This document shows, one piece after another, positions 32,220-49,152 of a stretch of DNA of 64,000 bases. The first letter of the stretch is position 1. The number at the start of each line of letters is the position of its first letter. Under the pieces are notes generated by a model. The model had not been told where the DNA came from and searched no databases. It saw nothing but the letters and a program-made list of their open reading frames with translations. A program made the position numbers and the translations under genes. The stretch is taken from assembly GCA_964592255.1 (NCBI GenBank), contig CAZQCI010000001.1, positions 15,885 through 79,884 of the forward strand. The letters are read 5' to 3'. This DNA comes from an uncultured Nitrospiraceae bacterium (GTDB lineage Bacteria; UBA10199; SBBF01).

Positions 32220-32231
32220 AATGAAATAAGA

Positions 32232-32268
32232 AATCCCCCTTCCTAAAACAGGAAGGGGGATTTTTATT
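32232..32268 (+). terminator. Rho-independent terminator
   Basis: AATCCCCCTTCC-TAAAACA-GGAAGGGGGATT, a 12-bp perfect stem, followed by TTTTATT. It lies 13 nt after the stop of the 30969..32219 gene. Confidence 0.7.
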
Positions 32269-34739: not shown

Positions 34740-35258
34740 TTGGATTCTAATTCAGGTATGAATAAAATCATCCCTGTACTCATTATATTTTTCCACCTTC
34801 TTTTTAGTTCTATCTCTATGGCAGAGGGCCTATGCACGCCAGAAGAACACACTTATTTTTCTTGTCCCATCAAAAGTGGTAAAACCCTTTCCGTCTGCGG
34901 TCAAAAAACGGCGGACAGCCTTAGCTGGCTGCAATACCGTTTTGGAACAAAACAAAAAATAGAACTAAGCTACCCAACAGATGCAAAAAACATTAAACCG
35001 GGGGAAGTCTTTTCCTTTTCTCATTATATGCGGGGTTCTCCTTTTACTCAAAACGATAATTTAAGTTTTACCAACGGTAGCACAACCTACAATGTCACCG
35101 TAGATTTAGAAGACGCTTCCGTAACCGATGATGGAAAAGAGCTTGTCAAATATGGTGTAGAAATCACCACGACTGAAAAACCAGACAACCCTATTTTTAT
35201 CTCGTGTACCAAACCCGTCACCAATCATTTGGACGAACTACAAGGGCTAATTCCTTAA
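34740..35258 (+). CDS. Hypothetical secreted protein (172 aa) immediately upstream of the Pel-like operon
   Basis: Signal-like N-terminus …MNKIIPVLIIFFHLLFSSISMAEG-LC. The lipobox is atypical. Cys-containing mature N-terminus (CTPEEHTYFSC). Possibly starts at the internal ATG (MNKIIP). Confidence 0.4.
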   Translation: MDSNSGMNKIIPVLIIFFHLLFSSISMAEGLCTPEEHTYFSCPIKSGKTLSVCGQKTADSLSWLQYRFGTKQKIELSYPTDAKNIKPGEVFSFSHYMRGSPFTQNDNLSFTNGSTTYNVTVDLEDASVTDDGKELVKYGVEITTTEKPDNPIFISCTKPVTNHLDELQGLIP

Positions 35259-35268
35259 GGAGAGTACC

Positions 35269-35637
35269 ATGGCGGATGCTAAAACCATTCTTGTTGTAGA
35301 AGATGAATATTTTTTGGCCGAATCTATCAAAGATCGTTTGGAATACTTAGGCTACCAAGTTTTACTGGCAGAACATGGTGAAGCCGCTCTTGAATTATTA
35401 AAAGAAAAAAAATGCAATTTGATTCTCTTAGACATCATCATGCCCGTTTTAGATGGCTGGGATACCCTCAAAGCCATTCGACAAAATTCTCAACTCAAAA
35501 ACTTGCCTGTCATTATGGTTTCAGCCAGAGCTACGGATCAAGACAAAGAAAAATCTCTGGCCTACGGAGCCAATGATCACCTGAACAAACCTTTCTCTTG
35601 GGATGATATGGCAGCCCTCATTAAAAAACACCTATGA
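35269..35637 (+). CDS. Stand-alone response-regulator receiver domain (CheY-like), first gene of the Pel-like operon
   Basis: Acidic pocket VVEDE. Phospho-acceptor D in LILLDIIMP. Conserved S (MVSA) and K (NKPF). 122 aa with no output domain. GGAG RBS. ATGA overlap with the next gene. Confidence 0.8.
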   Translation: MADAKTILVVEDEYFLAESIKDRLEYLGYQVLLAEHGEAALELLKEKKCNLILLDIIMPVLDGWDTLKAIRQNSQLKNLPVIMVSARATDQDKEKSLAYGANDHLNKPFSWDDMAALIKKHL

Positions 35638-36449
35638 GACAATGGCTTCTTGTTTTATGCCTGCTTTTCCTCACATCGTGTTCTTCACGTCTGCATTGGG
35701 TTATTTATTATGGATCCACACCGCCTAGTACACCGCTCAAAAAAGTCGATTGGGCTATTTTAGAACCAGACAATCTCCAGCCTTCTTCACTTAAAAATCC
35801 GAAAATTAAAACGTTAGGTTACATCAGCTTGGGTGAAATTAATAGCTCCCGTTCTTATTGGCCCAAAATTCAAAACTCTTCTTTTATTGTAGAAGAAAAC
35901 CCCAACTGGCCTGGAGCTTACCGTGTAGATATTCGCTCGACGGACTGGCAAGACTTATTGATCCAACAAATTCTTCCTTCCATATTAAATCAAGGATTTG
36001 ATGGTTTTTTCTTAGACACAGTAGATACAGCACTGTATCTGCAAGAAAAAGATCCCGTAAAATATTCACATTCTCAAGAAGCCATGGTGAATTTTATTAA
36101 GAAAATACGTGCTTCTTTTCCCAAAGCCCTCATTGTTCCCAATAATGGTCTCGAAATGCTGCCGGAAATCGGAAAAAATATCGACGCCATATTGGTAGAA
36201 GACCTTTATACCCGTTATGACTTCAACAACAAAACTGTCATCGCCACTCCAACTGAAGTAAGTCTAACCAAGGAAAAAATGTTGGATAAATTTACACACG
36301 ATTTCCACAAGCCCGTATTGGCTTTACTCTATGAAAATTCCACTAATACCCCTCTCACAAAACATGCTATAAGTAAGTGTAAAGAAAAGGATTATAGCTG
36401 GGCTGTCACAACAGTGGATCTGATGCACTGGAACGTGCCTACCCATTAG
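35634..36449 (+). CDS. Lipoprotein TIM-barrel glycoside hydrolase of the GH114/GH166 type (PelA hydrolase-domain-like)
   Basis: Lipobox FLTSCSS. Motif GFDGFFLDTVD is typical of the GH114/TM1410-like endo-alpha-1,4-hexosaminidase fold. 271 aa. 6-nt gap to the next gene. Confidence 0.55.
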   Translation: MRQWLLVLCLLFLTSCSSRLHWVIYYGSTPPSTPLKKVDWAILEPDNLQPSSLKNPKIKTLGYISLGEINSSRSYWPKIQNSSFIVEENPNWPGAYRVDIRSTDWQDLLIQQILPSILNQGFDGFFLDTVDTALYLQEKDPVKYSHSQEAMVNFIKKIRASFPKALIVPNNGLEMLPEIGKNIDAILVEDLYTRYDFNNKTVIATPTEVSLTKEKMLDKFTHDFHKPVLALLYENSTNTPLTKHAISKCKEKDYSWAVTTVDLMHWNVPTH

Positions 36450-36455
36450 CCATTT

Positions 36456-38525
36456 TTGAAAAATTTTATTCAACAATTGATTATTGTATTTTCTCTGTTG
36501 CTCCCTGCTCTTTCGGGTTTAGCAGCCTCTCAAGAGCCTCTTTCACGGAAAGTATTAGCGCTTTATGAATCCAGCGTTTATTCAGATCCAGCCTCTACAC
36601 TCATTCATCGGACGGCAGAACTCACATTAAACTATTTGGGCCTACAAGTGGAATACCGCCCCGTGGAAAGCCCCCTTCCTTCTGATGATGACATGCAGCC
36701 TTACATAGGCTTCATCACTTGGTTTACCAATGAAAATGCCGTCCCCCATCCGGATCTTTACTGTCAATGGATGCGCCATCAGATTCAAACAGGAAAAAAA
36801 ATAGTTCTCTTAGAAAACTGGGGATTGTTTCAAGACAAAAAACGTCATCTCAGCCCCATATGTGAAGACACTTTTAAAAAATTGGGAATAGAATACAAAG
36901 GGGAATACGCCGACAACCCCTACTTTTTAGAAGTAGCGGAACAAAAAACAGAATGGGTAGAATTTGAACGAAAAATTAATTTTACCGAAAACCTCACTTA
37001 CAGTTGGTTTAAAGCCATTGATCCCCAAAGTACCGTCTACCTTAAAGTTCGTAGAACGGACATGGTGAATAGTGAATCAGACATGGTTGTCACCACCCCT
37101 CAAGGTGGCTTTGTAGCACCAACCTGGCTCATCTATAACGACACAGAAACGAATCATATTCAATGGCGTGTTAATCCTTTTTTATTTTTTGAAAAAGCGT
37201 TTGACGTACCAGACTGGCCGCGCCCCGATACAACAACTTTAAATGGAAACCGAATTTTTTATAGCCACATTGATGGTGATGGCATTTTTAATATTTCTAA
37301 AATTGATCAAAAATCATTTTCTGGAGAAGTGATCTTAAATGAAATTTTAAAGCAATACCCCTCACTCCCTATCACACTCGGCCTCATCACAGGCTACATG
37401 GACTTGAAGGAATTCAACAATCCACGCACTCAAAAGCTGTACCGCGAGATGATAGAATTGCCGCAAGTAGAAATTGCCTCGCATGGCTATGCCCATCCTT
37501 TGGTTTGGAAAACAGGAGAACTGTCTTTAAAAATTCCAGATTACAACATGAATGCCGAAAAAGAAATCAACGGATCTATTCAGCAACTCAACCAAATGAT
37601 TGAGTCTTTAGGAATCACGTATAAAAAAACCTCTCTCTTTCAATGGACAGGAGACTGCACCCCTTCCGCCATACAAATTAAAATGGCAGAACAAACGGGG
37701 TTACCTAATCTTAATGGAGGTGGTGGGCGCCAAGATGACAATTTCTATGGTTTAGCGGCCCTCTACCCCATCGGCATTACAAAAGAAGGCGCCCATCAAA
37801 TTTATGCCGGGGCTTTTAACGAAAATAATTTCACCAATCTGTGGAGCGGCCCTTATTATGGGTTTGCCCACTTACTCTCCACATTGGACAAAACCGAAAA
37901 CCCTCTACGCCTTAAAGCCGTAGATGTTTATTATCATTTTTACAGTGGGGAACGTTGGGCTTCACTAAAAGCTGTGAAAAAAATTTATGATTCCTTTTTA
38001 AACAAAAATATCTTCCCCATTCATGCCAGCCAATACGCCAGAATTGCTGAAGGATTTTACACAACTGAAATTAAGCGCATTGCCAGTGGTCATTTTGTCG
38101 TTAGTAAAAATGGAGTCTTACAAACCATTCGTTTTGACCATGAAAAAAGAAATCTAGACCTCTCTCAATCGACAGGTGTTCTAGGTTTTATTCACGATAA
38201 AAATGCCCTGTATGTTTCATTAGATGAATCGGAAAACCACGTCATTCAACTATCAGAGGCTCAGCCCTCTTCTCCTTACTTAATTCAATCTACTTTTCAG
38301 GTTTCGCAACTAACAAAAAAAGTGGAGGGCTTTTCGTTTCAAAAACAAGGATGGTTAAAAAGTCATTGCCTTTGGGGAGGGCTAAGACCCAACCACAGTT
38401 ACCGAGTCATAACACAAGATGAAACTCAACGATTAACAACTTCTTCAACAGGGGAATTGAAAATAGACTTTCAAAAAAGTGAAAATGGATTAACCCCCGT
38501 CTTAGTAAGGGTTGAAGCAGAATAA
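36456..38525 (+). CDS. Periplasmic polysaccharide deacetylase (CE4/NodB-homology) multidomain protein, equivalent to the C-terminal two-thirds of PelA
   Basis: Signal peptide MKNFIQQLIIVFSLLLPALSGLAA. CE4 motifs FYSHIDGDG (MT1-like) and EIASHGYAHP (HxxxHP, MT2). 689 aa. Overlaps the PelB-like gene. Confidence 0.6.
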   Translation: MKNFIQQLIIVFSLLLPALSGLAASQEPLSRKVLALYESSVYSDPASTLIHRTAELTLNYLGLQVEYRPVESPLPSDDDMQPYIGFITWFTNENAVPHPDLYCQWMRHQIQTGKKIVLLENWGLFQDKKRHLSPICEDTFKKLGIEYKGEYADNPYFLEVAEQKTEWVEFERKINFTENLTYSWFKAIDPQSTVYLKVRRTDMVNSESDMVVTTPQGGFVAPTWLIYNDTETNHIQWRVNPFLFFEKAFDVPDWPRPDTTTLNGNRIFYSHIDGDGIFNISKIDQKSFSGEVILNEILKQYPSLPITLGLITGYMDLKEFNNPRTQKLYREMIELPQVEIASHGYAHPLVWKTGELSLKIPDYNMNAEKEINGSIQQLNQMIESLGITYKKTSLFQWTGDCTPSAIQIKMAEQTGLPNLNGGGGRQDDNFYGLAALYPIGITKEGAHQIYAGAFNENNFTNLWSGPYYGFAHLLSTLDKTENPLRLKAVDVYYHFYSGERWASLKAVKKIYDSFLNKNIFPIHASQYARIAEGFYTTEIKRIASGHFVVSKNGVLQTIRFDHEKRNLDLSQSTGVLGFIHDKNALYVSLDESENHVIQLSEAQPSSPYLIQSTFQVSQLTKKVEGFSFQKQGWLKSHCLWGGLRPNHSYRVITQDETQRLTTSSTGELKIDFQKSENGLTPVLVRVEAE

Positions 38526-41499
38526 AATGAATTACTCACGGACTCAAATTATTATCTTCTTTATCGCCATTGTGGTTCTAGGATGGCTTTTATACCCGCG
38601 TACGCTTTTTCTTGGATTTATTTATGAAGGCTCAGCTTCATTAGAAAAATCAGAAAATTATTATCAACAGTATTTGGCTAAAAAACCTTTCAACCGCTTT
38701 GCCACATTACGTTTGGTCGATATCTACGAACGTATGGGGGAACCTGAAAAAGCCACTCCTCTCTATACCAATCTCTATTCCCATCGCCTTCACGATTGGG
38801 ATTTGGCTCAAAAATATTTAAAGCATTTAGAAAACAAAGGCGACTTTGAAGCCGCCTATAAACTAAGACAAGAAATAGCCCATAACTTTTTTGACGAAAA
38901 AAATATCCCACGAGAAAAAATTCAAGATCTGCTGACGCAAGCATTTAAATATGCTCAATGGAAACAAAAAACGGAAGAGGCTTATCAGCTCTTACAAAAA
39001 ATAGCGGATATTTCAAAAAATCCAGACGCCACTCTTCAAACCCTACATTGGCTCGATTTAGGCCTGAAACATACCGATAAAATCATCGCACGGCTCAAAA
39101 AACAATTGGCTGAAAACCCACATGATAAAAATAGTCGCCGTGAACTTATTTCTGTCCAAATGGCATCTAAAAACTTTGAAGAAGCTTACCAAACTATTGA
39201 CGAGGGATTAACGCAAGATCCGCGTGACACGACTTTACTCAAACAACGTATTCAACTTGATGCAATAACTGGAAAATCGGAAATAGAAATCAAAGATACG
39301 CTCAAAATACTCAATCTGGCGACATTATCTTCAGAGGAGACAATCTATTTCAAGCTACACTTAGTATTTTTGTATCAAAAAATAGGACGTCTGGAAGAAG
39401 CGCTCCCTCTTTTTGAAGAACTCACAAAGACCAACCCTAAAAATAAGGACATTTGGAAAAACTGGGCTTTTGTCTTAACACAGGATCAAAAAATAGATGC
39501 GGCTCTCAAGGTATTGGAAAAAAGTCGGTTTTATTTTCCTGATGATCTGGACTTAGAAGAACAACAAGTCTCTCTTCTTCTCTACCAGAAAAAAGACACC
39601 TCTTCCGTTGCTTTGTATGACGATTTTCTAAAGAAAAAACCCAAACCTTCTTTTGCCTTAGACGTGGCCTATCTTCTACTGGATCAAAAAGAAAAAAACA
39701 AAGCCCAAAACTGGTTAAACCGTGCATTAAAACTATTCCCCGAAAATGATAAACTCATCTTTTTGCTAGCGGATGTGAATGTTGAATTAGGTTTGCTTGA
39801 AGATGCTGATTTTTTGCTCACTTCTTATCTAAAAAAACACCCAAACAATTCTACAGCTCATTTAAAAACCGCTCATTTAGCAGCTATACGCTTTCAATTT
39901 GCCGCGTTAGAGCAACATTTACAGCAATACTTAAGCCTTGAAAAAAATAAGTTCCAATCTCTCATCGCAGCCGGACAAGAATATTTGTTCGCAGGCCTTA
40001 ATTCACAAGCGCAAAACTATTTCCAAAAAGCCCGTGACCAAAACCCGAAAGACCCGACTCCCTGGTTTTGGCTATCTGCAGCTTATTGGAGTCAAAACTC
40101 AAAAAAGTCCTCACAACAATCAGCCCATCAGGCAAGTCTCCTTTTCTCTAAAAAGAAAAGTAATACTACTTGGGAACGATTAAGCCTTAAAGCTCAAGCA
40201 ATGGCTCGTTTTGATGAAGACATACGCCAAAAATATAAAAAAGCCTTGGAGCGCCATCCAAAAGATTTTGATTTTTACGCTGACTTTGCGGACGTGCTTC
40301 TTATGGAACAAGAAAACACCTTGGCTGCCGAAATTATTAAAACAATCGAGCAAAAATTTTCACAAAGACCAGAGGATGTCATTTCTCTTAAAGTGCGTTT
40401 AGCTCAACAGCAACACGATTGGAAAGAAGTGATTGATTTACTTAATAATCACCCAAAACCTTATTTAAGAGACACAAAAACTTTGGCGGAAGCTTACGCC
40501 GCCAATGGGCAATGGAAAAAAGCCATGGACTATTATCAGCAATTATCCTCATCCTCCGATGAGGAAGCTCAGAAAAAACTAGGTTTAACCGAGGAAGCAG
40601 CCAAACTCCATGCCGAATATGATCATCGCATTGGTCAAAACTTTCATTATCTGGATTTAGGAAACGATACCATCATTGAAGAGGGAATTTTCACTAAACA
40701 TTACTTAAATGAATCACTCAAGATAACGGGTGAATTTGTCTGGGGGCACTATCAATCCCCCGGAATTGATTTTGAGGGAAACGCAGAATATGGTAGGATC
40801 CTTCTTTCAAAACAATGGGGGCCCCAATGGCAACTTGAAGGAGGTCTGGGGTTTGGGGTGAGTGAGCAACATGAAACAGTGTCACCTTTATTAGGAATAC
40901 GCTACAAACCTTGGGAGAAACTTTTATTGGAAATGCAAGGAAGTCTTCGGGAATTAAGAACGGATCTTCCCCAATCGGTAGCCCGGGGCGCACTAAAAAG
41001 CCAAGTGTCTTTTCAGTGGAATTGGCAAGCTACTTCCCGTTTTAATTTTTCCGGCACTTATCGTCTGGGAAAAAATAGCTTAAGCGGAGGAGAAAAAGCT
41101 TGGGAACAAAGTTTTGAACCGTCGCTTTCGTTTCTATTGCTGCGCCAACCCGATGTATTTATAGGCTACCAGTTCAGCCTGGTTCATGTAGATGACAATG
41201 ACGGTTTTTTAAGAAAACTCCCCTTGCTACCCGATGTGAGGGCGCATTATTTAACAGCTGGGTTTAATCATCCCATCACCCCAACCTTTAAGGTGGCAAG
41301 TGGCTTTTTTCTGGGTGAAGACACGGCAAGAAACCTTCATTTTTTTGAAGGCGATTTATGGGGGGCCAATGCCTCCTTTGTGTGGAACCTCACCTCATGG
41401 TTAGATATGACAGGTTTTTATAGTTACGGCAGAGAAACTCTCACTGAAAGCGCCGGTCAGAGCCATAATCTCAACTTCGGCTTTTCAGGACATTGGTAA
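38512..41499 (+). CDS. pelB: PelB-like outer-membrane export protein: N-terminal TM anchor, long TPR array, C-terminal beta-barrel porin
   Basis: TM IIIFFIAIVVLGWLLYP. About 700 aa of TPR-like helical repeats. C-terminal region of alternating amphipathic beta strands ending …NLNFGFSGHW (aromatic terminus typical of OM barrels). Alternative start ATG 38527. Confidence 0.7.
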   Translation: MKQNKMNYSRTQIIIFFIAIVVLGWLLYPRTLFLGFIYEGSASLEKSENYYQQYLAKKPFNRFATLRLVDIYERMGEPEKATPLYTNLYSHRLHDWDLAQKYLKHLENKGDFEAAYKLRQEIAHNFFDEKNIPREKIQDLLTQAFKYAQWKQKTEEAYQLLQKIADISKNPDATLQTLHWLDLGLKHTDKIIARLKKQLAENPHDKNSRRELISVQMASKNFEEAYQTIDEGLTQDPRDTTLLKQRIQLDAITGKSEIEIKDTLKILNLATLSSEETIYFKLHLVFLYQKIGRLEEALPLFEELTKTNPKNKDIWKNWAFVLTQDQKIDAALKVLEKSRFYFPDDLDLEEQQVSLLLYQKKDTSSVALYDDFLKKKPKPSFALDVAYLLLDQKEKNKAQNWLNRALKLFPENDKLIFLLADVNVELGLLEDADFLLTSYLKKHPNNSTAHLKTAHLAAIRFQFAALEQHLQQYLSLEKNKFQSLIAAGQEYLFAGLNSQAQNYFQKARDQNPKDPTPWFWLSAAYWSQNSKKSSQQSAHQASLLFSKKKSNTTWERLSLKAQAMARFDEDIRQKYKKALERHPKDFDFYADFADVLLMEQENTLAAEIIKTIEQKFSQRPEDVISLKVRLAQQQHDWKEVIDLLNNHPKPYLRDTKTLAEAYAANGQWKKAMDYYQQLSSSSDEEAQKKLGLTEEAAKLHAEYDHRIGQNFHYLDLGNDTIIEEGIFTKHYLNESLKITGEFVWGHYQSPGIDFEGNAEYGRILLSKQWGPQWQLEGGLGFGVSEQHETVSPLLGIRYKPWEKLLLEMQGSLRELRTDLPQSVARGALKSQVSFQWNWQATSRFNFSGTYRLGKNSLSGGEKAWEQSFEPSLSFLLLRQPDVFIGYQFSLVHVDDNDGFLRKLPLLPDVRAHYLTAGFNHPITPTFKVASGFFLGEDTARNLHFFEGDLWGANASFVWNLTSWLDMTGFYSYGRETLTESAGQSHNLNFGFSGHW

Positions 41500-41503
41500 A
41501 GAT

Positions 41504-41869
41504 ATGGGAAAAAAAATATTGTTAATCGACGATGAAGTAGATTTTACTGAAGTGGTGGGCACCTTGCTGCGTTTTCATGATTTCGACGTAGACACTATCA
41601 ATGAGCCTCTTCTAGCTCCTGAAGCTATTAATAAAAATAATTATGATCTCATTGTTAGCGATTTGATGATGCCCGATATCAACGGCTTTGAATTGGTCGA
41701 GAAGATTAGGACCATGCCGCGCTACAAAGACACCCCAATCATTACCTTGTCGGCAAAACTCCTTAACGATGAAGAAAGAAAACAATTGCTCCATCATGGT
41801 GTTCATTGTTTATCTAAACCATTCGAGCCCAGTGGATTGGTAGATCAAATTTGTCAATTACTTGGCTAA
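41504..41869 (+). CDS. Second stand-alone CheY-like receiver domain, between the pelB- and pelD-like genes
   Basis: LLIDDE acidic pocket. D in DLIVSDLMMP. S in ITLSAK. K in LSKPF. 121 aa, no output domain. The start lies 4 nt after the pelB stop. Confidence 0.8.
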   Translation: MGKKILLIDDEVDFTEVVGTLLRFHDFDVDTINEPLLAPEAINKNNYDLIVSDLMMPDINGFELVEKIRTMPRYKDTPIITLSAKLLNDEERKQLLHHGVHCLSKPFEPSGLVDQICQLLG

Positions 41870-41905
41870 AGACCGTCTCTTCTTTTGTCATAAAAAGACA
41901 AAAGA

Positions 41906-43294
41906 ATGAGTAGGGAGAAAATTTCGGATTTGAAACGATACTCTTATTTGTACGAAATTCCTCTTTTTTACTTGGTTTTATGTGGAATCAATTTCTACCT
42001 GGTGCCGGAATATCCTTCTTTTTTTGGCATTGATCCCCATCCTTATTGGTTAGGCATTGTATTATTTGCCTTCCGGTATGGATTAGTCCCCTCACTCATC
42101 TCAGGCGTGTTATCAGCCCTATTATTTTTATTCGGAATATTCTTATTTGGAGAACGCTATCTTTTTGAAGACGCCGTTTTCTTCCTTCTACCCTCTTTCT
42201 TCATCATTGTTTCAACTTGCCTAGGTTTCTTAACACGCCAAACACATAAAAAAATAATCCAATTCCAAGACGCCGAAATAAGCGCCAGTCAAAAGGAAAA
42301 ACATTTAAACGAAGAAATAAAAACCCTAACCGAAATTAATAATAACCTTGAAAAAAGAATAGTCACTCGTATGTCAACCTTGGTGACTTTATATGAAGGA
42401 GCCAGGAGGCTTGAAACTCACGATATCGAAGAGCTTTACAAATCAGGCTTGGACTTTATCACTAAAACATTAGGAGCCGATGAAGCAGCCATTTATCTTA
42501 AACAAAACAATGAATGGCATTTAAAAGAAAGCATTGGCTGGAAAGAGTACGAAAAGCATCCAAAAATATTAAAATGGTCCGAGGGCCTAACCGGACTTGC
42601 AGGATCTACGAATAAGATTGTCAGCATTCGTGATTTTATGGGTCACAGCCCTAAAGAACTCCCTAATATATTTAGCGACGCACTAGTAGCCGCTCCTTTA
42701 CGCTTAGGGGAGCATGGCAAAGTCATCGGTGTAATTGCCATTCAACGAATGCCTTTTTTAAGTTTCACTAGCTCTTCAGTCAACCTCTTCTCTTTTCTCA
42801 TGAACTGGATTTCACGTTCCGTAGGAGAAGCTTCGTATATTCAAGAGTTAAAAGAACAAGAAATTATCGATCCAGAACTTCAGGTATATTCTCATTCTTA
42901 TTTTTTATCTCGTGCACGGCAAGAATTCTTACGATCAAAAAACTATTATTTACCTCTTGGGCTTGGAGTTGTCTCCTTCGATCAAACCACTCCTTTATCT
43001 GCCAAAGAAAATAAACGCCTTCTCTTAGCCATAGCCCAGCTCCTTAAACAAAACATACGTGAAATGGATGTGGTTGCACGCTTTCCTTCTTCAGAACACC
43101 CTTTTTCTATTCTCTTCATCACAGCTAGCCCTAAACAAACCGAAGAGATGACTGAAAAAATAACGCATGCTTACCAGGAATTAAAATTAGTCGATGCTAA
43201 AGGTAAGCCCCTGCCTCTTATTAAAATTAAATTGTCTCATTTTTCCCCACAAGTGGCCGATATCGATCAAATGCTTCGAGAGGCTCTCATATGA
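41906..43294 (+). CDS. pelD: PelD-like inner-membrane c-di-GMP receptor (4 TM + GAF + degenerate GGDEF)
   Basis: Four N-terminal TM helices. GAF-like region (LGADEAAIYLKQNNEWHL…VIGVIAIQRMPF). C-terminal degenerate cyclase-like domain. An RxxD (REMD) lies five residues upstream of where a degenerate GG(D/E)EF would sit (ARFPS…). ATGA overlap with the next gene. Confidence 0.6.
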   Translation: MSREKISDLKRYSYLYEIPLFYLVLCGINFYLVPEYPSFFGIDPHPYWLGIVLFAFRYGLVPSLISGVLSALLFLFGIFLFGERYLFEDAVFFLLPSFFIIVSTCLGFLTRQTHKKIIQFQDAEISASQKEKHLNEEIKTLTEINNNLEKRIVTRMSTLVTLYEGARRLETHDIEELYKSGLDFITKTLGADEAAIYLKQNNEWHLKESIGWKEYEKHPKILKWSEGLTGLAGSTNKIVSIRDFMGHSPKELPNIFSDALVAAPLRLGEHGKVIGVIAIQRMPFLSFTSSSVNLFSFLMNWISRSVGEASYIQELKEQEIIDPELQVYSHSYFLSRARQEFLRSKNYYLPLGLGVVSFDQTTPLSAKENKRLLLAIAQLLKQNIREMDVVARFPSSEHPFSILFITASPKQTEEMTEKITHAYQELKLVDAKGKPLPLIKIKLSHFSPQVADIDQMLREALI

Positions 43295-44328
43295 TGCATG
43301 CACGATTCATGTTTTTTTGGGGTTTAAGTGGTCTCTGTGAGTTTCCGTTTCTCCAAACTCTATTAGGTTTTCCTTATTTTTTTAAAGGGCACACTCCCTT
43401 TGTGGTCTTACTGCATGTGACGGGATCCGTATTGCTCTTTTTTTGTGTCCCCAAAGGAGAAGGCTGGTTTCATCCGGCACGCATGGGCGCAAAAACCTTT
43501 TTCTACATGGGGCTTTTTTTGCCGTTTGTAGGATGGATCATTTCCGGAATCTTATACATTCATTTCATCAAAGAAAAAGACAAACCCTATACTATAAACC
43601 AGGAAGATGATGATAATTTTTTCATGGACTCATTTCCTTCTTTATCCCTTTCTATTCAGCTTCCACGGCGAAATCGTCTTCAAAAACAATTGGATTTTAT
43701 TCCTTTAGTAGACATCATCCGAGGACCGGAAGAGATAGAGCTTAAACGTGGAGCTATCGAAAAACTTGCTCAAATTAATACCCCAGAAACAATCGACCTA
43801 CTTTTCTCTCTACGTAGCGATCCAGTCATGGAAGTGCGTTTCTATGCTACGTCTGCTTTGGGAAAAATCAAAAAAGAATTTGATGAACGTCTTGATGCTG
43901 CCAAAGAAGAAATAAAAAAAACAAGCCCCAGCAGTAAGGCACGACTCAACTTAGCTCAGGCTTACTTAGAATATGCCCAATCTCATCTTTTGGATAAAGT
44001 AACAACTTCCGCCTACGAAACAGAAGCTCTGTTTCACTTGCAGGAAGAGCTCAACAACCCCTTCCCTTCCCTACAAGCCTTTTGGATGCTCATTGATTTA
44101 TACAAAAATCATCGTCGATGGGAGCAAGCATTAGATTTACTAGAAAAATTGGAGCACCACCCGGAAACAGAAATTATTTTAGTTTTAAAAAGTAAAATTG
44201 AAATTATTTATTTGATGCAACGCTATCAAGAAATACCGGTTTTATTAGAAAAACTGACTCAAAAAAATAAATTACCAGACGAATGGACCGCTCTAGCACA
44301 ATGGTGGGGGGCCCATGTTGAACATTAA
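43291..44328 (+). CDS. pelE: PelE-like inner-membrane protein (N-terminal TM helices plus HEAT/TPR-like helical repeats)
   Basis: Hydrophobic N-terminal 100 aa. Helical repeats follow (PETIDLLFSLRSDPVMEVRFYATSALGKI; LNLAQAYLEYAQSH). Position between pelD and pelF. 345 aa. Confidence 0.5.
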   Translation: MMHARFMFFWGLSGLCEFPFLQTLLGFPYFFKGHTPFVVLLHVTGSVLLFFCVPKGEGWFHPARMGAKTFFYMGLFLPFVGWIISGILYIHFIKEKDKPYTINQEDDDNFFMDSFPSLSLSIQLPRRNRLQKQLDFIPLVDIIRGPEEIELKRGAIEKLAQINTPETIDLLFSLRSDPVMEVRFYATSALGKIKKEFDERLDAAKEEIKKTSPSSKARLNLAQAYLEYAQSHLLDKVTTSAYETEALFHLQEELNNPFPSLQAFWMLIDLYKNHRRWEQALDLLEKLEHHPETEIILVLKSKIEIIYLMQRYQEIPVLLEKLTQKNKLPDEWTALAQWWGAHVEH

Positions 44329-46279
44329 AAAAATTAAAGAACTCATTCATGGACCCAGTGAAGACGGTCGATTTGAAGCCTTTTTAGAGCTCTTTGAATC
44401 GGAAGATCCCAAAGCTTTGGAGGAAATACATCATATACTCACATCTCCCGACCCAGTGATTAAAATTAAATTCTTGCGCTTCTTATCACACGCAGAATCA
44501 GAAAAATCTTTGCCATTAATTGTTACATGCTTAAAAGATAAAAATCCCATCGTCATCAACGTGGCTCGAAAGGTTTTTGAAAAAAATACTTTTCCTTTAA
44601 AGTTTCGAAGCCTTCTTCCATTTCTCAACGCCCCTCACGATGATTTATTTACTTATGCGGTAAAAGCGTTAGCTCAGGCGGGTATCACCGAAATTATTGA
44701 ACCTTTATTTGAACAGCTAAAAAGAGTGGGGGAAGAAAGGCAGCTGATTATTTTATCGGTTTTACGTTGGCTTCCCGAAGAAAGAATGATTCCTGTTCTC
44801 CTGTCTTATCTTAAATCAAAAAATGACAATATCCGCTATAAAACTTTAATGGTCTTTGGAAGTCTATTGAGTGCAGGCCATAGTTCGGCACGCAAACATC
44901 TACTTCCCTCTCTCAAGGATAACAATGCCTCAATTCGGCAAGCTGTTTTATGGTGTTTAAAAAGAGCCCCTTCAAAAAAAGATTATTCAATTTTTTTAAA
45001 TTACTCACAAAAAGATCCAGATCCTTTAGTCAGACAAGAAGCTCTAATAGGGCTGAGTACTTTTCCCCCACGAAAAATTATTTTGCCTATTCTTTCTCTC
45101 ATGGCGACTGAAAAATCACGCATGGTTTTATTGAAAGGAGAAGGACTTCTTTTGGGAATAAACATTCAAGATCTGGAATCCGAGTTAAGTAAAGCGCTTC
45201 AATCCAAAAATACCAAAATTAGAGAAAGAGCCCAACTGTTAATGTCGGAATTAGGACGCAATTCGGAAAGTTTTTGTAAAAAATTACTCGAAAAAGCCAT
45301 GCGGATCAAATCACCTAAAGAAAGACTCACTTTAATTGAAGCACTAGGCAATACACAAAGTCACAATGCCATTGCCTGGCTGGAAACCCTGCTCAACACA
45401 GATCCCTTAACATCCTATGCAGCTATTTCGGCCTTGTTAAAAATTTGGGGCGAAAACCCACAACAACCCATTCTTAAATATTTACAACATCAAAAATCAG
45501 CCATTACCCGCCAAAACGTACTCAAGCATCTGGTTAAAAAAAATATCCCTTTGAAAAGCAATACTGATTTAGAAAAATATCTGATGGGTCTTTTAGAAGA
45601 CGCCAATTTAAATATTCGATATCTAGCAACTCAAGCCTTGCTCAAGATCAACAGCTCAATGCTGCTACACCCCTTAATGAAAACATTACTTAACGAGTCT
45701 GACCCCACAACTTTTCAACTTTTGCGACAAAGTATTTTATCTTTACTAGCAAAAAACCCCCAATTAATCGGTCCAATGTTAAAATTGTATTATCAAGACA
45801 GTAAGGCTCTTCATACTTTAATCAACCTGATGAGTGAAATCGACTTGGAAGGATCTCATTCTTTAGAACTATTAATCATTCTCTTATCCCCACCTTTCAT
45901 GCTGGATAACTCGCCTTTGCTTCAAGAAGCGGTCCGTTTCATCCTCATCCAATATCTTCAAGATAAAATTCGCTTAGAAGATGTGGTTGAAAGCGTATCT
46001 ACTATTCCACAACGGGATTTGATTTTTGATTGTTTATATACTCAACTAGAAAATCAATCTAGCTCTATGCGCCCTATTTTTTCTAAATCTAAAATTGAAA
46101 CCTGGCTTCATAACGACTGCCTGCTCTCCCCTTCCTTATTACGGCTACTCGCTTTAAGTCAGGATGAAAAATTAATCGCTGTATTAGTTCAATTCACATC
46201 ACAAAAACCTTTAGCACCATACAAAGCAGAATTGATCCATACTCTTAATCGGATGATTTGGCAGGAGGCCTGCTCATGA
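44315..46279 (+). CDS. Large HEAT-repeat (PBS-lyase-type HEAT-like) protein embedded in the Pel-like operon
   Basis: 654 aa. More than 10 repeats of about 30 aa with the pattern D/NPxVRxxAxxALxxIG (e.g. DPVIKIKFLRFLS, NASIRQAVLWCLKRAP, DPLVRQEALIGLS, NLNIRYLATQALLKI). No TM or signal. Overlaps both neighbours (14 and 22 nt). Confidence 0.6.
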   Translation: MLNIKKIKELIHGPSEDGRFEAFLELFESEDPKALEEIHHILTSPDPVIKIKFLRFLSHAESEKSLPLIVTCLKDKNPIVINVARKVFEKNTFPLKFRSLLPFLNAPHDDLFTYAVKALAQAGITEIIEPLFEQLKRVGEERQLIILSVLRWLPEERMIPVLLSYLKSKNDNIRYKTLMVFGSLLSAGHSSARKHLLPSLKDNNASIRQAVLWCLKRAPSKKDYSIFLNYSQKDPDPLVRQEALIGLSTFPPRKIILPILSLMATEKSRMVLLKGEGLLLGINIQDLESELSKALQSKNTKIRERAQLLMSELGRNSESFCKKLLEKAMRIKSPKERLTLIEALGNTQSHNAIAWLETLLNTDPLTSYAAISALLKIWGENPQQPILKYLQHQKSAITRQNVLKHLVKKNIPLKSNTDLEKYLMGLLEDANLNIRYLATQALLKINSSMLLHPLMKTLLNESDPTTFQLLRQSILSLLAKNPQLIGPMLKLYYQDSKALHTLINLMSEIDLEGSHSLELLIILLSPPFMLDNSPLLQEAVRFILIQYLQDKIRLEDVVESVSTIPQRDLIFDCLYTQLENQSSSMRPIFSKSKIETWLHNDCLLSPSLLRLLALSQDEKLIAVLVQFTSQKPLAPYKAELIHTLNRMIWQEACS

Positions 46280-47736
46280 TCGACGTATGCCTCCTCTTAG
46301 AAGGAACCTATCCTTATGTCGCTGGAGGAGTATCCACGTGGGTTCATCAACTTATTTCTTCCATCAAAGATTTACGCTTTGGTATTTTATTCATTGCACC
46401 TTATTCAGACCCTACACGCACTCTAAAATATGAAGTACCCAACCATGTGCTCTATCTGAAAGAAATTTATTTACACGACTACAACTTAGAATTACGACCC
46501 AAAAGAAAACCAACCTCACAAGACTATGAACTGATTAAAAAATTTTATGAAAATGTTCAAAAAGAGGATTTCAAGTTATTTGCTAACTTTGTTCGCCTCT
46601 TCCAAGGAGAAAACTCATGTTTCGGCATCCAAAATCTTTTTAATTCGGAGCAAACCTGGGATTTGCTTACTTATTTTTACGAACGATATGCGGGTGATAT
46701 TTCTTTCATTGATTATTTTTGGACTTGGCGAGGTACCCATTTACCCTTGATGCAAATGCTCACTGCAGAAATTCCACGAGCTAAAATTTACCATGCCGTC
46801 TCAACCGGTTATGCAGGTCTTATTGGAGCCATTGCTAAACAATTCAATCAAGGAAAGTTTTTTTTAACAGAACACGGGCTCTATACTCACGAGCGCATGC
46901 TAGAAATCTCACAAGCCTCTTGGATTTATGAACAGAAAAAAAGAGATTTCAAAGCCGAAAAAGGATTTTCTTTTTTTAAGCAATGGTGGATTACCATTTT
47001 TGATACTCTCAGTCGTTTAGCCTACGATTCAGCCGACAATATTTATACTCTATTTGAAGGCAACAAAAGACGGCAAATTTTACAAGGCGCACAAGCCGAT
47101 AAAATCACAGTCATCCCTAACGGCATTGATGTTATCGCCTTTGAAAAAATTGAGCGGAGTAAAAAAACACACCCACAAATAGGTCTTATTGGACGAGTTG
47201 TCACAATTAAAGATATCAAAACATATATTCAAGCAGCCCGTATTGTTCTTCAAAAGTTACCGACAGCCTCTTTTTACATCATTGGCCCTACGGATGAAGA
47301 GCAAGAATATTTTGAAGAATGTAAAATGATGGTGGAAGCCCTGCACATGGAAAATAATATTATCTTCACGGGGCGAGTAGACCCAAAAACCTATTATGCG
47401 TTTCTGGACTTAGTAGTCCTTACCAGTATTTCAGAAGCCCAACCTTATGTCATTTTAGAAGCCAATGCCGTAGGCATACCGGTAGTAGCCAGCGATGTGG
47501 GGGCTTGCCGAGAAATGCTGGAAGGAAGCAGTTCTTTGGATCGGACCTTAGGAGTGAGTGGTAAAATCACAGAAGTATCCAACCCTGACGATACAGCTAA
47601 AGCCATTGTAGAGATTATGACCAACGAAACCCTGTATCGGCATATGAGCCAAACGGGAAAACAAAGAGTGAAACAATATTATGACGATCGTGATTTGATC
47701 AGCAAATACATAAATATTTACGAAAAAAACTTATAA
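46258..47736 (+). CDS. pelF: PelF-like cytoplasmic GT4 glycosyltransferase with an N-terminal DUF3492-type domain
   Basis: N-terminus MIDVCLLLEGTYPYVAGGVSTWVHQLI matches the PelF/DUF3492 start. C-terminal GT4 region (EAQPYVILEANAVGIPVVASDVGACREML). Confidence 0.8.
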   Translation: MAGGLLMIDVCLLLEGTYPYVAGGVSTWVHQLISSIKDLRFGILFIAPYSDPTRTLKYEVPNHVLYLKEIYLHDYNLELRPKRKPTSQDYELIKKFYENVQKEDFKLFANFVRLFQGENSCFGIQNLFNSEQTWDLLTYFYERYAGDISFIDYFWTWRGTHLPLMQMLTAEIPRAKIYHAVSTGYAGLIGAIAKQFNQGKFFLTEHGLYTHERMLEISQASWIYEQKKRDFKAEKGFSFFKQWWITIFDTLSRLAYDSADNIYTLFEGNKRRQILQGAQADKITVIPNGIDVIAFEKIERSKKTHPQIGLIGRVVTIKDIKTYIQAARIVLQKLPTASFYIIGPTDEEQEYFEECKMMVEALHMENNIIFTGRVDPKTYYAFLDLVVLTSISEAQPYVILEANAVGIPVVASDVGACREMLEGSSSLDRTLGVSGKITEVSNPDDTAKAIVEIMTNETLYRHMSQTGKQRVKQYYDDRDLISKYINIYEKNL

Positions 47737-47745
47737 CTTATTCTT

Positions 47746-49152
47746 ATGGCTGGCATTGGCTTCAGATTACAAAAACTTCTTGCGGGTGAGTCCTACACTG
47801 ACTTGATACGGGCTTACTTATACTCTTCTGTTATCACTTCAGGACCTATGATCATCGTCATGATCACTTTAATGCTGACTAACTCTCTCATTAGTCATAA
47901 CCTAGATTTAGAAGCAGCTAAAAATATACTCCCACTCATCATTTACGTTTATGCTTTTTCCATGGTTGGCGTAGGGCCTTTTGTCTATGTCGTCACCAGA
48001 AATATTGCAGATAAATATTATTTGAAAGAAATAGAATCTTTCACTCCCATTTACTTTGCAACATTGGAAATTGTATTTATATCTCAAACTTTACTCGCCT
48101 TGCCTTTTCTTGTCTTTTCTTCTTTTGATTTCACCACTAAATGGGTCGTACTTTGTCTCTATCTTCTAGTAAGCGGAATTTGGGTAGCCATGCTTTTTCT
48201 TTCTGCCGCCAGAAGTTACTTGTGGATTGTAGGAGGCTTTATTTTTGGAGGCCTAGCCGGGCTAGCCTTTTCCTGGTTTTTAAGTCGGATAGAGGGGCCT
48301 CTTGGTTTTATTAAGGGCTATACGCTAGGCCAAGGAGTCACTTTTTTAATTTTATGCCTGCGTATTTTTAAAGAGTTCGGTTATCGCTTTAACCATGATT
48401 ATGGTTTTCTACTTTATTTCAAACGTTACAATTCTTTGGCCTGGGTTGGTTTTTTTTATTATGCCGGTATCTGGGTCGATAAATTTATATTTTGGTTTTT
48501 TGGACCCGAAAGCAACATGGTTCATGGTTTAAAAATTTATAATAATTATGACACCCCTCTTTTCTTATCATTCATCAGTGTCATTCCTTCCATGGCTTTT
48601 TTTCTCATTCAAATGGAAACCAACTTTGTACGGCATTACCATTCTTACTACAAAGCCATACGCGAGCGTGGTTCCCTGCTTCTCATCAGAGAAAAAAAGA
48701 AAAAAATCATCGAAACTCTCAGCCAGCATTTTCAAAAATTTGCCATTCTACAGGGGCTTTTTACAGCCGTAATCATCCTATTTATTGTTCCATTATCTGA
48801 AGCCCTTGGGCTTAACCCTTATCAAGTAGGCATTCTACGGATCAGCCTGTTAGGATCTTACTTACTCATGGGTTATGTGATGGTACTTAATATTTTATTT
48901 TATTTTGAACTACAAAAAGAAGCGTTTTGGATTTCTGCCATTTTCTTTTTCGGAAATGCCCTCTTTACTTTTGCCACTTTAAAAATTGGATTTGCCTCTT
49001 ACGGTTTTGGATATACTTTAGCCTCTTTTGTAAGTGTCATGGTAGGCTTTATCGTATTAAATCGTCGGTTAGAAAAACTGAACTGCTTAACCTTTATGAA
49101 TCAACCTATTTTAGTCCCTCAGTTTAAATTAGAAAATGAAGAGCAAAACTAA
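47746..49152 (+). CDS. pelG: PelG-like polysaccharide exporter (MATE/MOP-like, 12 TM)
   Basis: N-terminus MAGIGFRLQKLLAGESYTDLIRAYLYSSVITSGPMI resembles the conserved PelG start. 468 aa, polytopic. Confidence 0.7.
   Translation: MAGIGFRLQKLLAGESYTDLIRAYLYSSVITSGPMIIVMITLMLTNSLISHNLDLEAAKNILPLIIYVYAFSMVGVGPFVYVVTRNIADKYYLKEIESFTPIYFATLEIVFISQTLLALPFLVFSSFDFTTKWVVLCLYLLVSGIWVAMLFLSAARSYLWIVGGFIFGGLAGLAFSWFLSRIEGPLGFIKGYTLGQGVTFLILCLRIFKEFGYRFNHDYGFLLYFKRYNSLAWVGFFYYAGIWVDKFIFWFFGPESNMVHGLKIYNNYDTPLFLSFISVIPSMAFFLIQMETNFVRHYHSYYKAIRERGSLLLIREKKKKIIETLSQHFQKFAILQGLFTAVIILFIVPLSEALGLNPYQVGILRISLLGSYLLMGYVMVLNILFYFELQKEAFWISAIFFFGNALFTFATLKIGFASYGFGYTLASFVSVMVGFIVLNRRLEKLNCLTFMNQPILVPQFKLENEEQN

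What the first reader, a model, noticed from the sequence alone, without database searches (positions are those of the whole stretch)
35269..35637. Receiver-only response regulator as the first gene of the Pel-like operon
A complete CheY-like receiver with all phospho-chemistry residues (EDE pocket, D in LLDIIMP, S, K) and no output domain. It is translationally coupled (ATGA) to the GH lipoprotein gene.
No histidine kinase is encoded anywhere in the 64-kb window. Its partner and its role are therefore open. One possibility is gating EPS production or modification by phosphorylation, alongside or instead of c-di-GMP.
Basis: partly seen in the sequence, partly recalled or inferred. Interest (0 to 1): 0.6.

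Follow-up and report, generated by a model that had tools for sequence, protein, structure and literature searches.

The report
Orphan response regulator heading Pel operon
A small phosphorylation-switch protein sits directly in front of a biofilm-sugar (Pel) gene cluster; related uncultured bacteria keep the same pairing, usually with its sensor kinase next door, so this Pel type is probably controlled by phosphorylation as well as by c-di-GMP.

Summary
ORF 35269-35637 (+) encodes a 122-aa stand-alone receiver (Pfam Response_reg 1.2e-28; AF2 pLDDT 92.6; TM 0.93-0.95 to RR468). Its catalytic residues are intact: E11/D12/E13, D55, S85, K107-P108. Its stop overlaps the ATG of the PelA-hydrolase (GH114) lipoprotein gene (ATGA). 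The window holds no histidine kinase or Hpt.

New here:
- RR1 belongs to a distinct orthogroup of about 40 cluster representatives. In 13 of 14 loci examined it sits immediately before a PelA gene.
- In 9 of those 14 loci a related HisKA kinase lies just upstream. Five of these kinases carry a degenerate GGDEF domain that keeps an RxxD I-site. The partner is therefore inferable, and the window's genome has unlinked or lost it.
- The window has a second receiver-only gene (RR2, 41504-41869) before PelD. RR2 is present in 15/15 related loci. A HEAT-repeat protein is present in 10/10.
- PelD keeps its RxxD I-site, so phosphorylation acts alongside c-di-GMP, not instead of it.
- "First gene" is doubtful, because a real 172-aa gene ends 10 nt upstream.

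The RR itself is ordinary. The Pel variant with an embedded two-component module was not found in the literature searched. RR1's target is inferred, not shown.

The parts
34740..35258 (+). 172-aa secreted protein of unknown function. It is the immediate upstream neighbour and is not part of the conserved Pel module.
   Evidence: Its TAA stop lies 10 nt before the RR1 ATG. The family has 1001 representatives at E<=1e-3 and no Pfam hit. It is absent from related Pel loci. It bears on whether RR1 is the first gene.
35269..35637 (+). RR1: stand-alone receiver (single-domain response regulator), the finding itself.
   Evidence: Pfam PF00072 at 1.2e-28. Residues E11/D12/E13, D55, S85, K107-P108. AF2 pLDDT 92.6 and TM 0.95 to RR468. 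Orthogroup defined by reciprocal best hits and a profile score gap.
35634..35637 (+). ATGA overlap: RR1 stop and GH114 start codon.
   Evidence: Read directly from the sequence. Overlaps or gaps of 50 nt or less also occur in 13 orthologous loci.
35634..36449 (+). PelA hydrolase part (GH114 lipoprotein).
   Evidence: Pfam GH114 at 1.6e-21. Matches PelA 9cgy_A residues 7-178 and 5tcb. Lipobox LTSC.
36456..38525 (+). PelA C-terminal part (deacetylase region), 689 aa.
   Evidence: Matches PelA 9cgy_A residues 241-830 at E=1.3e-68. Fused to GH114 in L005, L012 and others.
38512..41499 (+). PelB-like TPR protein with a C-terminal porin region.
   Evidence: Multiple TPR Pfam families. Syntenic PelB hits down to about 1e-180 in related loci.
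41504..41869 (+). RR2: second stand-alone receiver, directly before PelD.
   Evidence: Pfam PF00072 at 1.8e-20. Residues D9/D10, D53, S83, K105. 27% identical to RR1. Forms its own orthogroup, present in 15/15 loci that cover the PelB-PelD junction.
41906..43294 (+). PelD-like protein: membrane region, GAF, and degenerate GGDEF with the I-site retained.
   Evidence: GAF at 2e-9 and GGDEF at 1e-4. 'REMD' aligns with the I-site RxxD of a true GGDEF, and 'PSSEH' replaces GGEEF. RxxD is present in all 11 subclade PelDs.
43291..44328 (+). PelE-like protein with HEAT/TPR region.
   Evidence: Pfam HEAT_2 and TPR_14. Syntenic PelE hits.
44315..46279 (+). 654-aa cytoplasmic HEAT-repeat (PBS-lyase/NblB-like) protein, specific to this Pel subclade.
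   Evidence: HEAT_2 at 1.8e-36. AlphaRep-like PDB hits. Present in 10/10 subclade loci that reach past PelE and absent from more distant Pel loci.
46258..47736 (+). PelF glycosyltransferase.
   Evidence: NCBIfam PelF equivalog at 497 bits against a cut-off of 100. DUF3492 plus GT1.
47746..49152 (+). PelG.
   Evidence: Pfam PelG at 1.2e-120.

Best explanation
**What RR1 is.** RR1 is a working, phosphorylatable single-domain response regulator. It belongs to an orthogroup found almost only at the head of one subclass of Pel exopolysaccharide operons.

**The subclass layout.** [kinase, 0-2 further receivers, RR1] - PelA (often split) - PelB - RR2 - PelD - PelE - HEAT-repeat protein - PelF - PelG.

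**Likely kinase.** By orthology, RR1's kinase is a cytoplasmic PAS- or REC-input HisKA/HATPase kinase. It often carries a C-terminal degenerate GGDEF domain that keeps the RxxD c-di-GMP I-site. In this genome that kinase gene is not next to the operon, so it is either elsewhere or lost. RR1 is an orphan here by gene rearrangement, not by design.

**Proposed mechanism.**
- RR1 is translated together with the pel genes (shown by gene overlap and conserved synteny).
- It is phosphorylated on D55 (inferred from the intact chemistry).
- Having no output domain, it acts by protein-protein contact on the cytoplasmic side of the Pel synthase complex (PelD/PelE/HEAT protein/PelF), together with or through RR2. 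In this way it tunes Pel production after translation. This step is inferred, by analogy with EpsW~P activating EpsZ in Myxococcus.
- c-di-GMP control through the PelD I-site is retained, so the two signals act together.
For: **Identity and chemistry**
-.

**Co-expression with pel**
- ATGA overlap.
- An RR1 orthologue lies immediately before GH114/PelA in 11 loci, and before the PelA C-terminal part in 2 more, out of 14 with context.

**Orthogroup**
- Pel-linked RR1s are each other's best hits, ahead of more than 100 database receivers.
- The profile search gives about 40 representatives at 150 bits or more, then a plateau at 145 or less.
- Receivers outside the orthogroup are not in Pel loci: one sampled on the plateau of the profile search (P0201), and three that were among the closest single-sequence hits at 41-47% identity (P0003, P0009, P0012).

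**Kinase**
- HisKA+HATPase_c genes lie directly upstream on the same strand in L002, L006, L008, L166, L167, L168, L169, L170 and L171.
- The eight upstream kinases compared (all but L170 and L171) are 36-51% identical to one another.
- Five have a degenerate GGDEF with RKKD/RRGD/RKGD/RRED/RATD aligned to REMD of PelD.
- In L003 a receiver is fused to the C-terminus of the kinase at the RR1 position.

**c-di-GMP retained**
-.

**Subclade-specific cytoplasmic partners**
- RR2 in 15/15 loci and the HEAT protein in 10/10.

**Precedents**
- EpsW~P binds and activates the EPS-initiating enzyme after translation (PMC12802240).
- The kinase SgmT senses c-di-GMP through the I-site of a degenerate GGDEF and controls matrix composition (PMC3509222).
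Against: - No direct evidence for phosphorylation, for any binding partner, or for an effect on Pel.
- RR1 is dispensable for this operon type. L004, L007, L082 and L010 have the subclade architecture without RR1 or a kinase.
- One orthologue (L168) sits with kinases but not next to pel genes.
- RR1 is not an EpsW equivalog: 74 bits against a cut-off of 200.
- The window's RR1 is unique among 41 orthologues at three near-invariant positions (N36H, M61L, Y104H, the last being the aromatic switch position). This could mean retargeting or relaxed constraint in the absence of the adjacent kinase.
- The gene RR1 overlaps encodes a periplasmic enzyme, so the coupling says nothing about a physical partner.
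- Only 64 kb of an 83-kb contig was visible, and the organism is unidentified.
Confidence: 0.55

Rival explanations
1. RR1 is a phosphate sink or phospho-shuttle. The real output regulator is RR2, which is translationally coupled to PelD. RR1 and the extra receivers seen in relatives only shape how much phosphate from the kinase reaches RR2, as CheY1 does for CheY2 in Sinorhizobium or Spo0F does in a relay.
For: - RR2 is universal (15/15), whereas RR1 is present in only about two thirds of subclade loci and travels with the kinase.
- Relatives carry 2-3 tandem receiver-only genes after one kinase (L001, L002, L006, L166, L171), as is typical of branched or sink systems.
- In L003 and L170 the kinase itself carries a C-terminal receiver, as in phosphorelays.
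- RR2 has a strongly conserved alpha4 motif (LSAKxLxDEERKxLL, KPFEP), consistent with a fixed partner.
Against: - No Hpt domain was found in the window or the operon, so a His-Asp-His-Asp relay lacks a component.
- RR1's own sequence is highly conserved beyond the active site (mean column identity 57-61%), more than a mere sink would need.
- Subclade loci without RR1 or a kinase still keep RR2.
Confidence: 0.25
2. RR1's target lies outside the Pel machinery. It is co-expressed with pel genes so that another process, such as motility or its own kinase (DivK-like allosteric feedback), switches when matrix is made. This would be comparable to the EpsE flagellar clutch encoded in the Bacillus subtilis eps operon (recalled from knowledge, not checked here).
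For: - Receiver-only proteins commonly act on motors or kinases.
- The L168 orthologue is linked to kinases but not to pel genes.
- RR1 is absent from some loci of the same Pel type.
Against: - In 13 of 14 loci the orthologue directly precedes a PelA gene, mostly with overlapping or nearly abutting reading frames (gap 50 nt or less).
- No motility or chemotaxis genes occur in the window.
- The structural and sequence neighbours are RR468/OmpR-type receivers rather than CheY.
Confidence: 0.12
3. In this genome RR1 is a decaying or phosphorylation-independent remnant. The kinase was lost, and the receiver persists only because of its position in the operon.
For: - There is no kinase in 64 kb.
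- The window has unique substitutions at three near-invariant positions, including the switch residue Y104H.
Against: - The ORF is intact with a good Shine-Dalgarno sequence.
- All catalytic residues are kept (D12, D55, S85, K107).
- Identity to orthologues is 43-50%, in line with the rest of the operon (GH114 40-53%).
- His at the switch position is compatible with function in Spo0F (from knowledge).
- Orphan receivers with distant kinases are common.
Confidence: 0.08

Closest known systems
RR468 of Thermotoga maritima (HK853-RR468 pair), a stand-alone receiver
   Same: Single receiver domain of about 120 aa with no output domain. It is the best sequence and fold match (E about 5e-21; TM 0.93-0.95, 36-37% identity). 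It has the same catalytic residues and is encoded next to a HisKA kinase, as RR1 orthologues are.
   Different: RR468 has no link to a polysaccharide operon. RR1 has E at the first acidic position and H at the switch position.
EpsW of Myxococcus xanthus (single-domain RR that activates EPS synthesis after translation; PMC12802240, PMC4671073)
   Same: A receiver-only protein that controls exopolysaccharide output by protein-protein contact when phosphorylated. In the window RR1 is an orphan relative to its kinase, as EpsW is.
   Different: EpsW acts on a phosphoglycosyl transferase of a Wzx/Wzy pathway and is fed by a CheA-type kinase (DifE). RR1 sits in a synthase-dependent Pel operon, and its orthologues sit beside HisKA kinases. 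RR1 fails the NCBIfam EpsW equivalog model (74 against 200 bits).
Canonical Pseudomonas aeruginosa pelABCDEFG with PelD as c-di-GMP receptor
   Same: PelA (split here), PelB, PelD (GAF plus degenerate GGDEF with RxxD), PelE, PelF and PelG are all present in the same order.
   Different: This locus has no PelC. It has two receiver-only genes and a 654-aa HEAT-repeat protein inserted, and relatives add a histidine kinase. None of these extras is mentioned in the Pel operon survey PMC7112194.
SgmT/DigR of Myxococcus xanthus (histidine kinase with a degenerate GGDEF that binds c-di-GMP at the I-site; PMC3509222)
   Same: Kinases next to RR1 orthologues in L002, L008, L166, L167 and L169 have HisKA-HATPase followed by a GGDEF domain that lacks GG[DE]EF but keeps RxxD. 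SgmT also relates to extracellular matrix control.
   Different: SgmT's partner is a DNA-binding regulator, whereas here the adjacent partner is receiver-only. c-di-GMP binding by these kinases is untested. No such kinase is in the window.

Membership tests
CheY-like receiver domain (Pfam PF00072), stand-alone class | Significant match to the receiver profile over its full length, with no other domain. | tested here: met
   100 bits against a cut-off of 30.2, profile positions 1-110 of 111, protein of 122 aa.
CheY-like receiver domain (Pfam PF00072), stand-alone class | Acidic pair, phospho-acceptor Asp at the end of beta3, Thr/Ser at the end of beta4, and Lys followed by cis-Pro at the end of beta5. 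| tested here: met
   E11/D12, D55, S85 and K107-P108 align to RR468 D9/D10, D53, T83 and K105. They are invariant or conservatively varied in 41 orthologues.
CheY-like receiver domain (Pfam PF00072), stand-alone class | (beta-alpha)5 fold. | tested here: met
   The AF2 model has pLDDT 92.6 with five strands alternating with five helices, and TM 0.93-0.95 to RR468.
CheY-like receiver domain (Pfam PF00072), stand-alone class | Actual phosphorylation by a kinase or a small-molecule donor. | not testable with these tools
   Requires biochemistry.
Two-component pair with an adjacent cognate histidine kinase | A HisKA/HATPase_c gene in the same locus. | tested here: not met
   None in the 64-kb window. 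The feature is met in 9 of 14 orthologous loci.
EpsW (NCBIfam NF041866 equivalog) | Score at or above the curated cut-off of the equivalog model. | tested here: not met
   74.3 bits against a cut-off of 200.
Chemotaxis CheY | Genomic association with cheA/cheW/MCP or flagellar switch genes. | tested here: not met
   No che or flagellar genes in the window or beside the orthologues. The rest of the genome was not visible.
Phosphorelay intermediate (Spo0F-like) | Presence of an Hpt/Spo0B-type phosphotransferase to pass the phosphate on. | tested here: not met
   No Hpt domain in any window ORF scanned. The rest of the genome was not visible.
Pel exopolysaccharide biosynthesis operon | PelF (GT4 with DUF3492) and PelG present together. 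| tested here: met
   PelF NCBIfam equivalog at 497 bits against 100. Pfam PelG at 1.2e-120.
Pel exopolysaccharide biosynthesis operon | PelA hydrolase/deacetylase, PelB TPR-porin, PelD GAF plus degenerate GGDEF with I-site, and PelE. | tested here: met
   PelA is split: residues 7-178 and 241-830 of 9cgy_A. PelB TPR. PelD RxxD. PelE by synteny and HEAT/TPR.
Pel exopolysaccharide biosynthesis operon | PelC lipoprotein ring (part of the P. aeruginosa type). | tested here: not met
   No gene lies between PelB and PelD other than RR2. The 172-aa upstream ORF has no lipobox and no Pfam hit. Many non-proteobacterial Pel loci also lack a gene in that slot.

The most novel reading that the evidence does not exclude
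The kinase, RR1 (and extra receivers), RR2 and the HEAT-repeat protein form a dedicated phosphorylation-gated activation module of the Pel synthase. A histidine kinase senses c-di-GMP through a degenerate-GGDEF I-site and converts it into receiver phosphorylation. RR1~P and/or RR2~P then dock on PelD or the HEAT scaffold to license polymerisation. This would be a second-messenger-to-phosphorylation route into a synthase-dependent exopolysaccharide machine, which has not been described for Pel.
Probability: 0.2. Interest if true: 0.7.

Novelty: new variant of a known kind. Interest (0 to 1): 0.45.

Why it matters
- Pel is one of the most widespread biofilm polysaccharides, and its only established post-translational control is c-di-GMP binding to PelD.
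- A conserved Pel subclass carries two stand-alone receivers, a HEAT scaffold protein and (in most relatives) a kinase with a c-di-GMP-type I-site. It occurs in uncultured lineages labelled Deltaproteobacteria, Nitrospira, Elusimicrobia and Pseudomonadota.
- This suggests that some bacteria gate Pel synthesis by phosphorylation as well.
- It gives a concrete, testable set of partners: the kinase family, RR1, RR2, PelD and the HEAT protein.
- It would extend the recent EpsW-EpsZ idea (single-domain regulators acting directly on polysaccharide enzymes) from Wzx/Wzy pathways to synthase-dependent ones.
- The receiver taken on its own is an ordinary member of a very large family.

Tried and rejected
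- **Promoter and terminator scan, 32.2-49.6 kb.** It found 28 promoter-like sites against 36.7 expected and 21 terminator-like sites against 17.3 expected. It is uninformative, so operon boundaries could not be set.
- **Rfam scan of the whole window.** No hit, so no c-di-GMP riboswitch or other known leader.
- **Retrieving the source contig and organism.** The organism stays unidentified, and the remaining 19 kb or so of the 83-kb contig could not be searched for the kinase.
- **Top single-sequence hits as orthologues.** P0003, P0009 and P0012 (41-47% identity) turned out not to be in Pel contexts. Percent identity alone does not define the orthogroup, so reciprocal best hits and a profile score gap were used instead.
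- **Metagenome scan with GH114.** It returned mostly short contigs and added only four informative loci: L082 (a full subclade locus with RR2 and the HEAT protein but no RR1), L084, L085 and L100.
- **Receivers next to GH114 in L085, L100 and L003.** They are not RR1 orthologues and were counted separately as independent recruitments.
- **The 172-aa upstream ORF as a PelC substitute.** Rejected: it has no lipobox and no Pfam hit, and is absent from related loci.
- **EpsW membership.** Rejected.
- **Multimer modelling.** The tools cannot do it.
- **GC content.** The pel region is only mildly lower than its flanks (0.37-0.41 against 0.40-0.46). This is not convincing evidence of an island.

Full report
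**1. The observation**

- ORF 35269-35637 on the + strand (ATG to TGA, 122 aa) is present as described. An AAGGAG ribosome-binding site lies 8 nt upstream.
- It matches the Pfam receiver model over its whole length: residues 7-118, E = 1.2e-28, 100 bits against a cut-off of 30.2. There is no room for another domain.
- The best solved relatives are stand-alone or N-terminal receivers, led by Thermotoga RR468.
- An AlphaFold2 model built on 41 orthologues has mean pLDDT 92.6 and a clean (beta-alpha)5 topology. It superposes on RR468 with TM 0.93-0.95.
- The phospho-chemistry residues are E11-D12-E13, D55 (in LLDIIMP), S85 and K107-P108. D12, D55, K107 and P108 are invariant in 41 orthologues. 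Position 85 is T in 33 and S in 8.
- The RR1 TGA overlaps the ATG of the next gene (ATGA). That gene is a lipoprotein (lipobox LTSC) of family GH114 and aligns to residues 7-178 of PelA.

**2. No kinase in the window**

- Pfam scans of the distinct (non-shadow) ORFs of 100 aa or more show no HisKA, HATPase_c or Hpt.
- An HMM built from kinases found in related loci, run without filters against all ORFs of 40 aa or more, gave nothing better than E = 2.1.
- tblastn gave nothing better than E = 0.15.
- The receiver HMM finds exactly two receiver ORFs in the window: RR1 and a second one at 41504-41869.

**3. The surrounding operon**

Downstream, all on the + strand with overlaps or small gaps (at most 36 nt, between RR2 and PelD), lie:

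| Coordinates | Gene | Evidence |
|---|---|---|
| 35634-36449 | PelA hydrolase part | |
| 36456-38525 | PelA C-terminal part | PelA residues 241-830, E = 1.3e-68, |
| 38512-41499 | PelB-like TPR/porin | |
| 41504-41869 | RR2, second receiver-only protein | D9/D10, D53, S83, K105; 27% identical to RR1; |
| 41906-43294 | PelD, GAF plus degenerate GGDEF | |
| 43291-44328 | PelE | |
| 44315-46279 | 654-aa HEAT-repeat protein | |
| 46258-47736 | PelF | NCBIfam equivalog, 497 bits against 100; |
| 47746-49152 | PelG | Pfam 1e-120; |

- There is no PelC.
- In PelD, 'REMD' aligns with the RxxD I-site of a true diguanylate cyclase, and 'PSSEH' replaces GGEEF. RxxD is present in all 11 PelDs of the subclade. 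c-di-GMP sensing by PelD is therefore most likely kept.
- Upstream, a 172-aa ORF (34740-35258) stops 10 nt before the RR1 start codon. It is a genuine gene of a large unnamed secreted-protein family (1001 representatives at E<=1e-3; no Pfam hit).
- No terminator lies between that ORF and RR1, and the consensus scans were no better than chance. Whether RR1 is the first gene of the transcript is therefore open.

**4. Related loci**

- The nearest database relative of RR1 is 49% identical. It lies on a groundwater contig as REC-REC-GH114-PelA C-terminal part.
- Using GH114 as an anchor, I fetched 79 genome loci and 80 metagenome loci. I mapped receivers, kinases and Pel proteins on them.
- The loci closest to the window share its architecture. 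They are MAGs labelled Deltaproteobacteria, Nitrospira, Elusimicrobia and Pseudomonadota, with GH114 at 40-49% identity.
- More distant Pel loci have neither receivers nor the HEAT protein.
- By reciprocal best hits, the receivers fall into clean groups:
  - an RR1 group, always the gene just before PelA;
  - an RR2 group, always just before PelD;
  - a third group of extra receivers that occurs in some loci between the kinase and RR1.
- A profile of eight RR1 orthologues recovers about 40 cluster representatives at 150-198 bits, followed by a generic plateau at 145 bits or less.
- I inspected six more members above the gap. Five are in the same Pel operon type (L166, L167, L169, L170, L171). 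One (L168) sits beside two kinases but not beside pel genes.
- One control on the plateau below the gap (P0201) is not in a Pel locus. Nor are P0003, P0009 and P0012, which were among the closest single-sequence hits at 41-47% identity.

Tallies:

| Feature | Count |
|---|---|
| RR1 orthologue immediately followed by GH114 or fused PelA | 11 of 14 loci |
| RR1 orthologue immediately followed by the PelA C-terminal part | 2 of 14 loci |
| RR2 present, among loci covering the PelB-PelD junction | 15 of 15 |
| HEAT protein present, among loci reaching past PelE | 10 of 10 |
| Subclade loci lacking RR1 | 4 (L004, L007, L082, L010) |

**5. The missing partner**

- In 9 of the 14 loci a HisKA/HATPase_c kinase lies directly upstream on the same strand, with zero to two receiver genes in between. 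These are L002, L006, L008, L166, L167, L168, L169, L170 and L171.
- The eight upstream kinases I compared (all but those of L170 and L171) are related to each other at 36-51% identity. The inputs of the nine are PAS or REC domains.
- Five of them end in a GGDEF domain that has lost GG[DE]EF but keeps an RxxD motif in register with the PelD I-site (Pfam GGDEF hits).
- In L003 a receiver is fused to the C-terminus of the kinase at the RR1 position.
- The kinase family that partners RR1 can therefore be named by orthology. The window's genome is one of a minority in which that gene is not adjacent.
- I could not look at the rest of the genome.

**6. Mechanism**

Shown:
- RR1 has an intact receiver.
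- It is tightly and conservatively coupled to pel genes.
- It usually travels with a specific kinase family.
- The operon keeps a c-di-GMP-competent PelD.

Inferred:
- RR1 is phosphorylated on D55.
- Lacking an output domain, it works by binding another protein.
- The most economical target is the cytoplasmic face of the Pel synthase complex, or the subclade-specific cytoplasmic extras (RR2, HEAT protein).
- The closest functional precedent is EpsW~P, which activates the EPS-initiating enzyme EpsZ after translation (PMC12802240). The kinase type recalls SgmT, a matrix-controlling kinase that binds c-di-GMP through a degenerate GGDEF I-site (PMC3509222).

Main rival:
- RR1 may be a sink or shuttle that modulates phosphate flow to RR2. 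RR2 is the universal and PelD-coupled receiver.
- The evidence does not separate these two models.
- A role outside Pel, or decay of an orphan, is less likely but not excluded.
- The window's RR1 is unique among 41 orthologues at N36H, M61L and the switch position Y104H.

**7. Comparison with the known, and novelty**

- As a protein, RR1 is a new member of the very large stand-alone receiver class. It reaches no curated NCBIfam equivalog, including EpsW (74 against 200 bits).
- As a system, the Pel operon with an embedded two-component module and a HEAT protein did not turn up in the literature I could search. The systematic Pel operon survey never mentions response regulators, receivers, kinases or HEAT proteins. 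Two further full-text searches found nothing relevant.
- I therefore rate it a new variant of a known kind.

**8. Verdict**

The 'first gene' claim is uncertain, 'partner open' is now narrowed, and 'alongside c-di-GMP' is favoured over 'instead of'.
- Interest is moderate (0.45). The receiver is ordinary, but the conserved module gives a testable hypothesis for phosphorylation control of Pel.

Noticed in passing
window 41504-41869 (+): A second receiver-only response regulator (RR2) lies between PelB and PelD. It has its own orthogroup, present in 15/15 related loci, with a conserved alpha4 motif LSAKxLxDEERKxLL and KPFEP. It often overlaps the PelD start codon in relatives.
   Followed up: partly
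window 44315-46279 (+): A 654-aa cytoplasmic HEAT-repeat (PBS-lyase/NblB-like) protein is inserted between PelE and PelF. It is found only in the Pel subclade that also has RR2 (10/10 loci). Its function is unknown, and it may be a scaffold.
   Followed up: partly
window 35634-38525 (+): PelA is split into a GH114 lipoprotein gene and a 689-aa gene, corresponding to PelA residues 7-178 and 241-830. The two are fused in L005 and in several distant loci. L166 and L167 lack the GH114 part altogether.
   Followed up: partly
window 41499-41906: There is no PelC gene. The slot between PelB and PelD is occupied by RR2. Many non-proteobacterial Pel loci (for example L017, L020, L038) also have PelB directly followed by PelD.
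   Followed up: partly
window 34740-35258 (+): A 172-aa secreted, Cys-containing protein belongs to a large unnamed family (1001 representatives at E<=1e-3, no Pfam model). The database copy is annotated from M27, but homologues align from residues 8-29, which favours the longer ORF with a signal peptide.
   Followed up: partly
L002:7782-9218, L008:7956-9545, L166:7926-9557, L167:8472-10004, L169:8529-9998: Histidine kinases next to RR1 orthologues carry a C-terminal degenerate GGDEF domain. It has no GG[DE]EF but conserves RxxD, and it aligns with the degenerate GGDEF of PelD. These are candidate c-di-GMP-sensing kinases.
   Followed up: partly
window 35269-35637, residues 36, 61, 104: The window's RR1 is the only one of 41 orthologues with H at position 36 (N in 38) and H at the aromatic switch position 104 (Y in 37, F in 3). 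It is one of only two with L at position 61 (M in 38).
   Followed up: no
L001:1428-1811, L002:9121-9564, L006:6261-6689, L171:7585-8001, L166:7462-7827(-): A third orthogroup of receiver-only proteins occurs between the kinase and RR1 in several related loci. It is absent from the window.
   Followed up: partly
L001:370-1419 and L169:7468-8532: In two related loci an AI-2E family transporter gene lies just upstream of the kinase/receiver block that heads the Pel operon.
   Followed up: no
window 32231-32263: A strong 15-bp-stem palindromic hairpin lies just after the 416-aa ORF (30969-32219). It is probably a terminator that marks the start of the transcription region containing the 134-aa ORF, the choice-of-anchor-I protein, the 172-aa ORF and RR1.
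   Followed up: no
window 32844-34697 (+): A 617-aa choice-of-anchor I lipoprotein with a long Ser/Thr/Gly/Pro-rich linker lies directly upstream of the 172-aa ORF. It is not conserved next to related Pel loci.
   Followed up: no
window 36000-50000: The pel region has slightly lower G+C (0.37-0.41) than its flanks (0.40-0.46). The difference is mild and not clearly an island.
   Followed up: no
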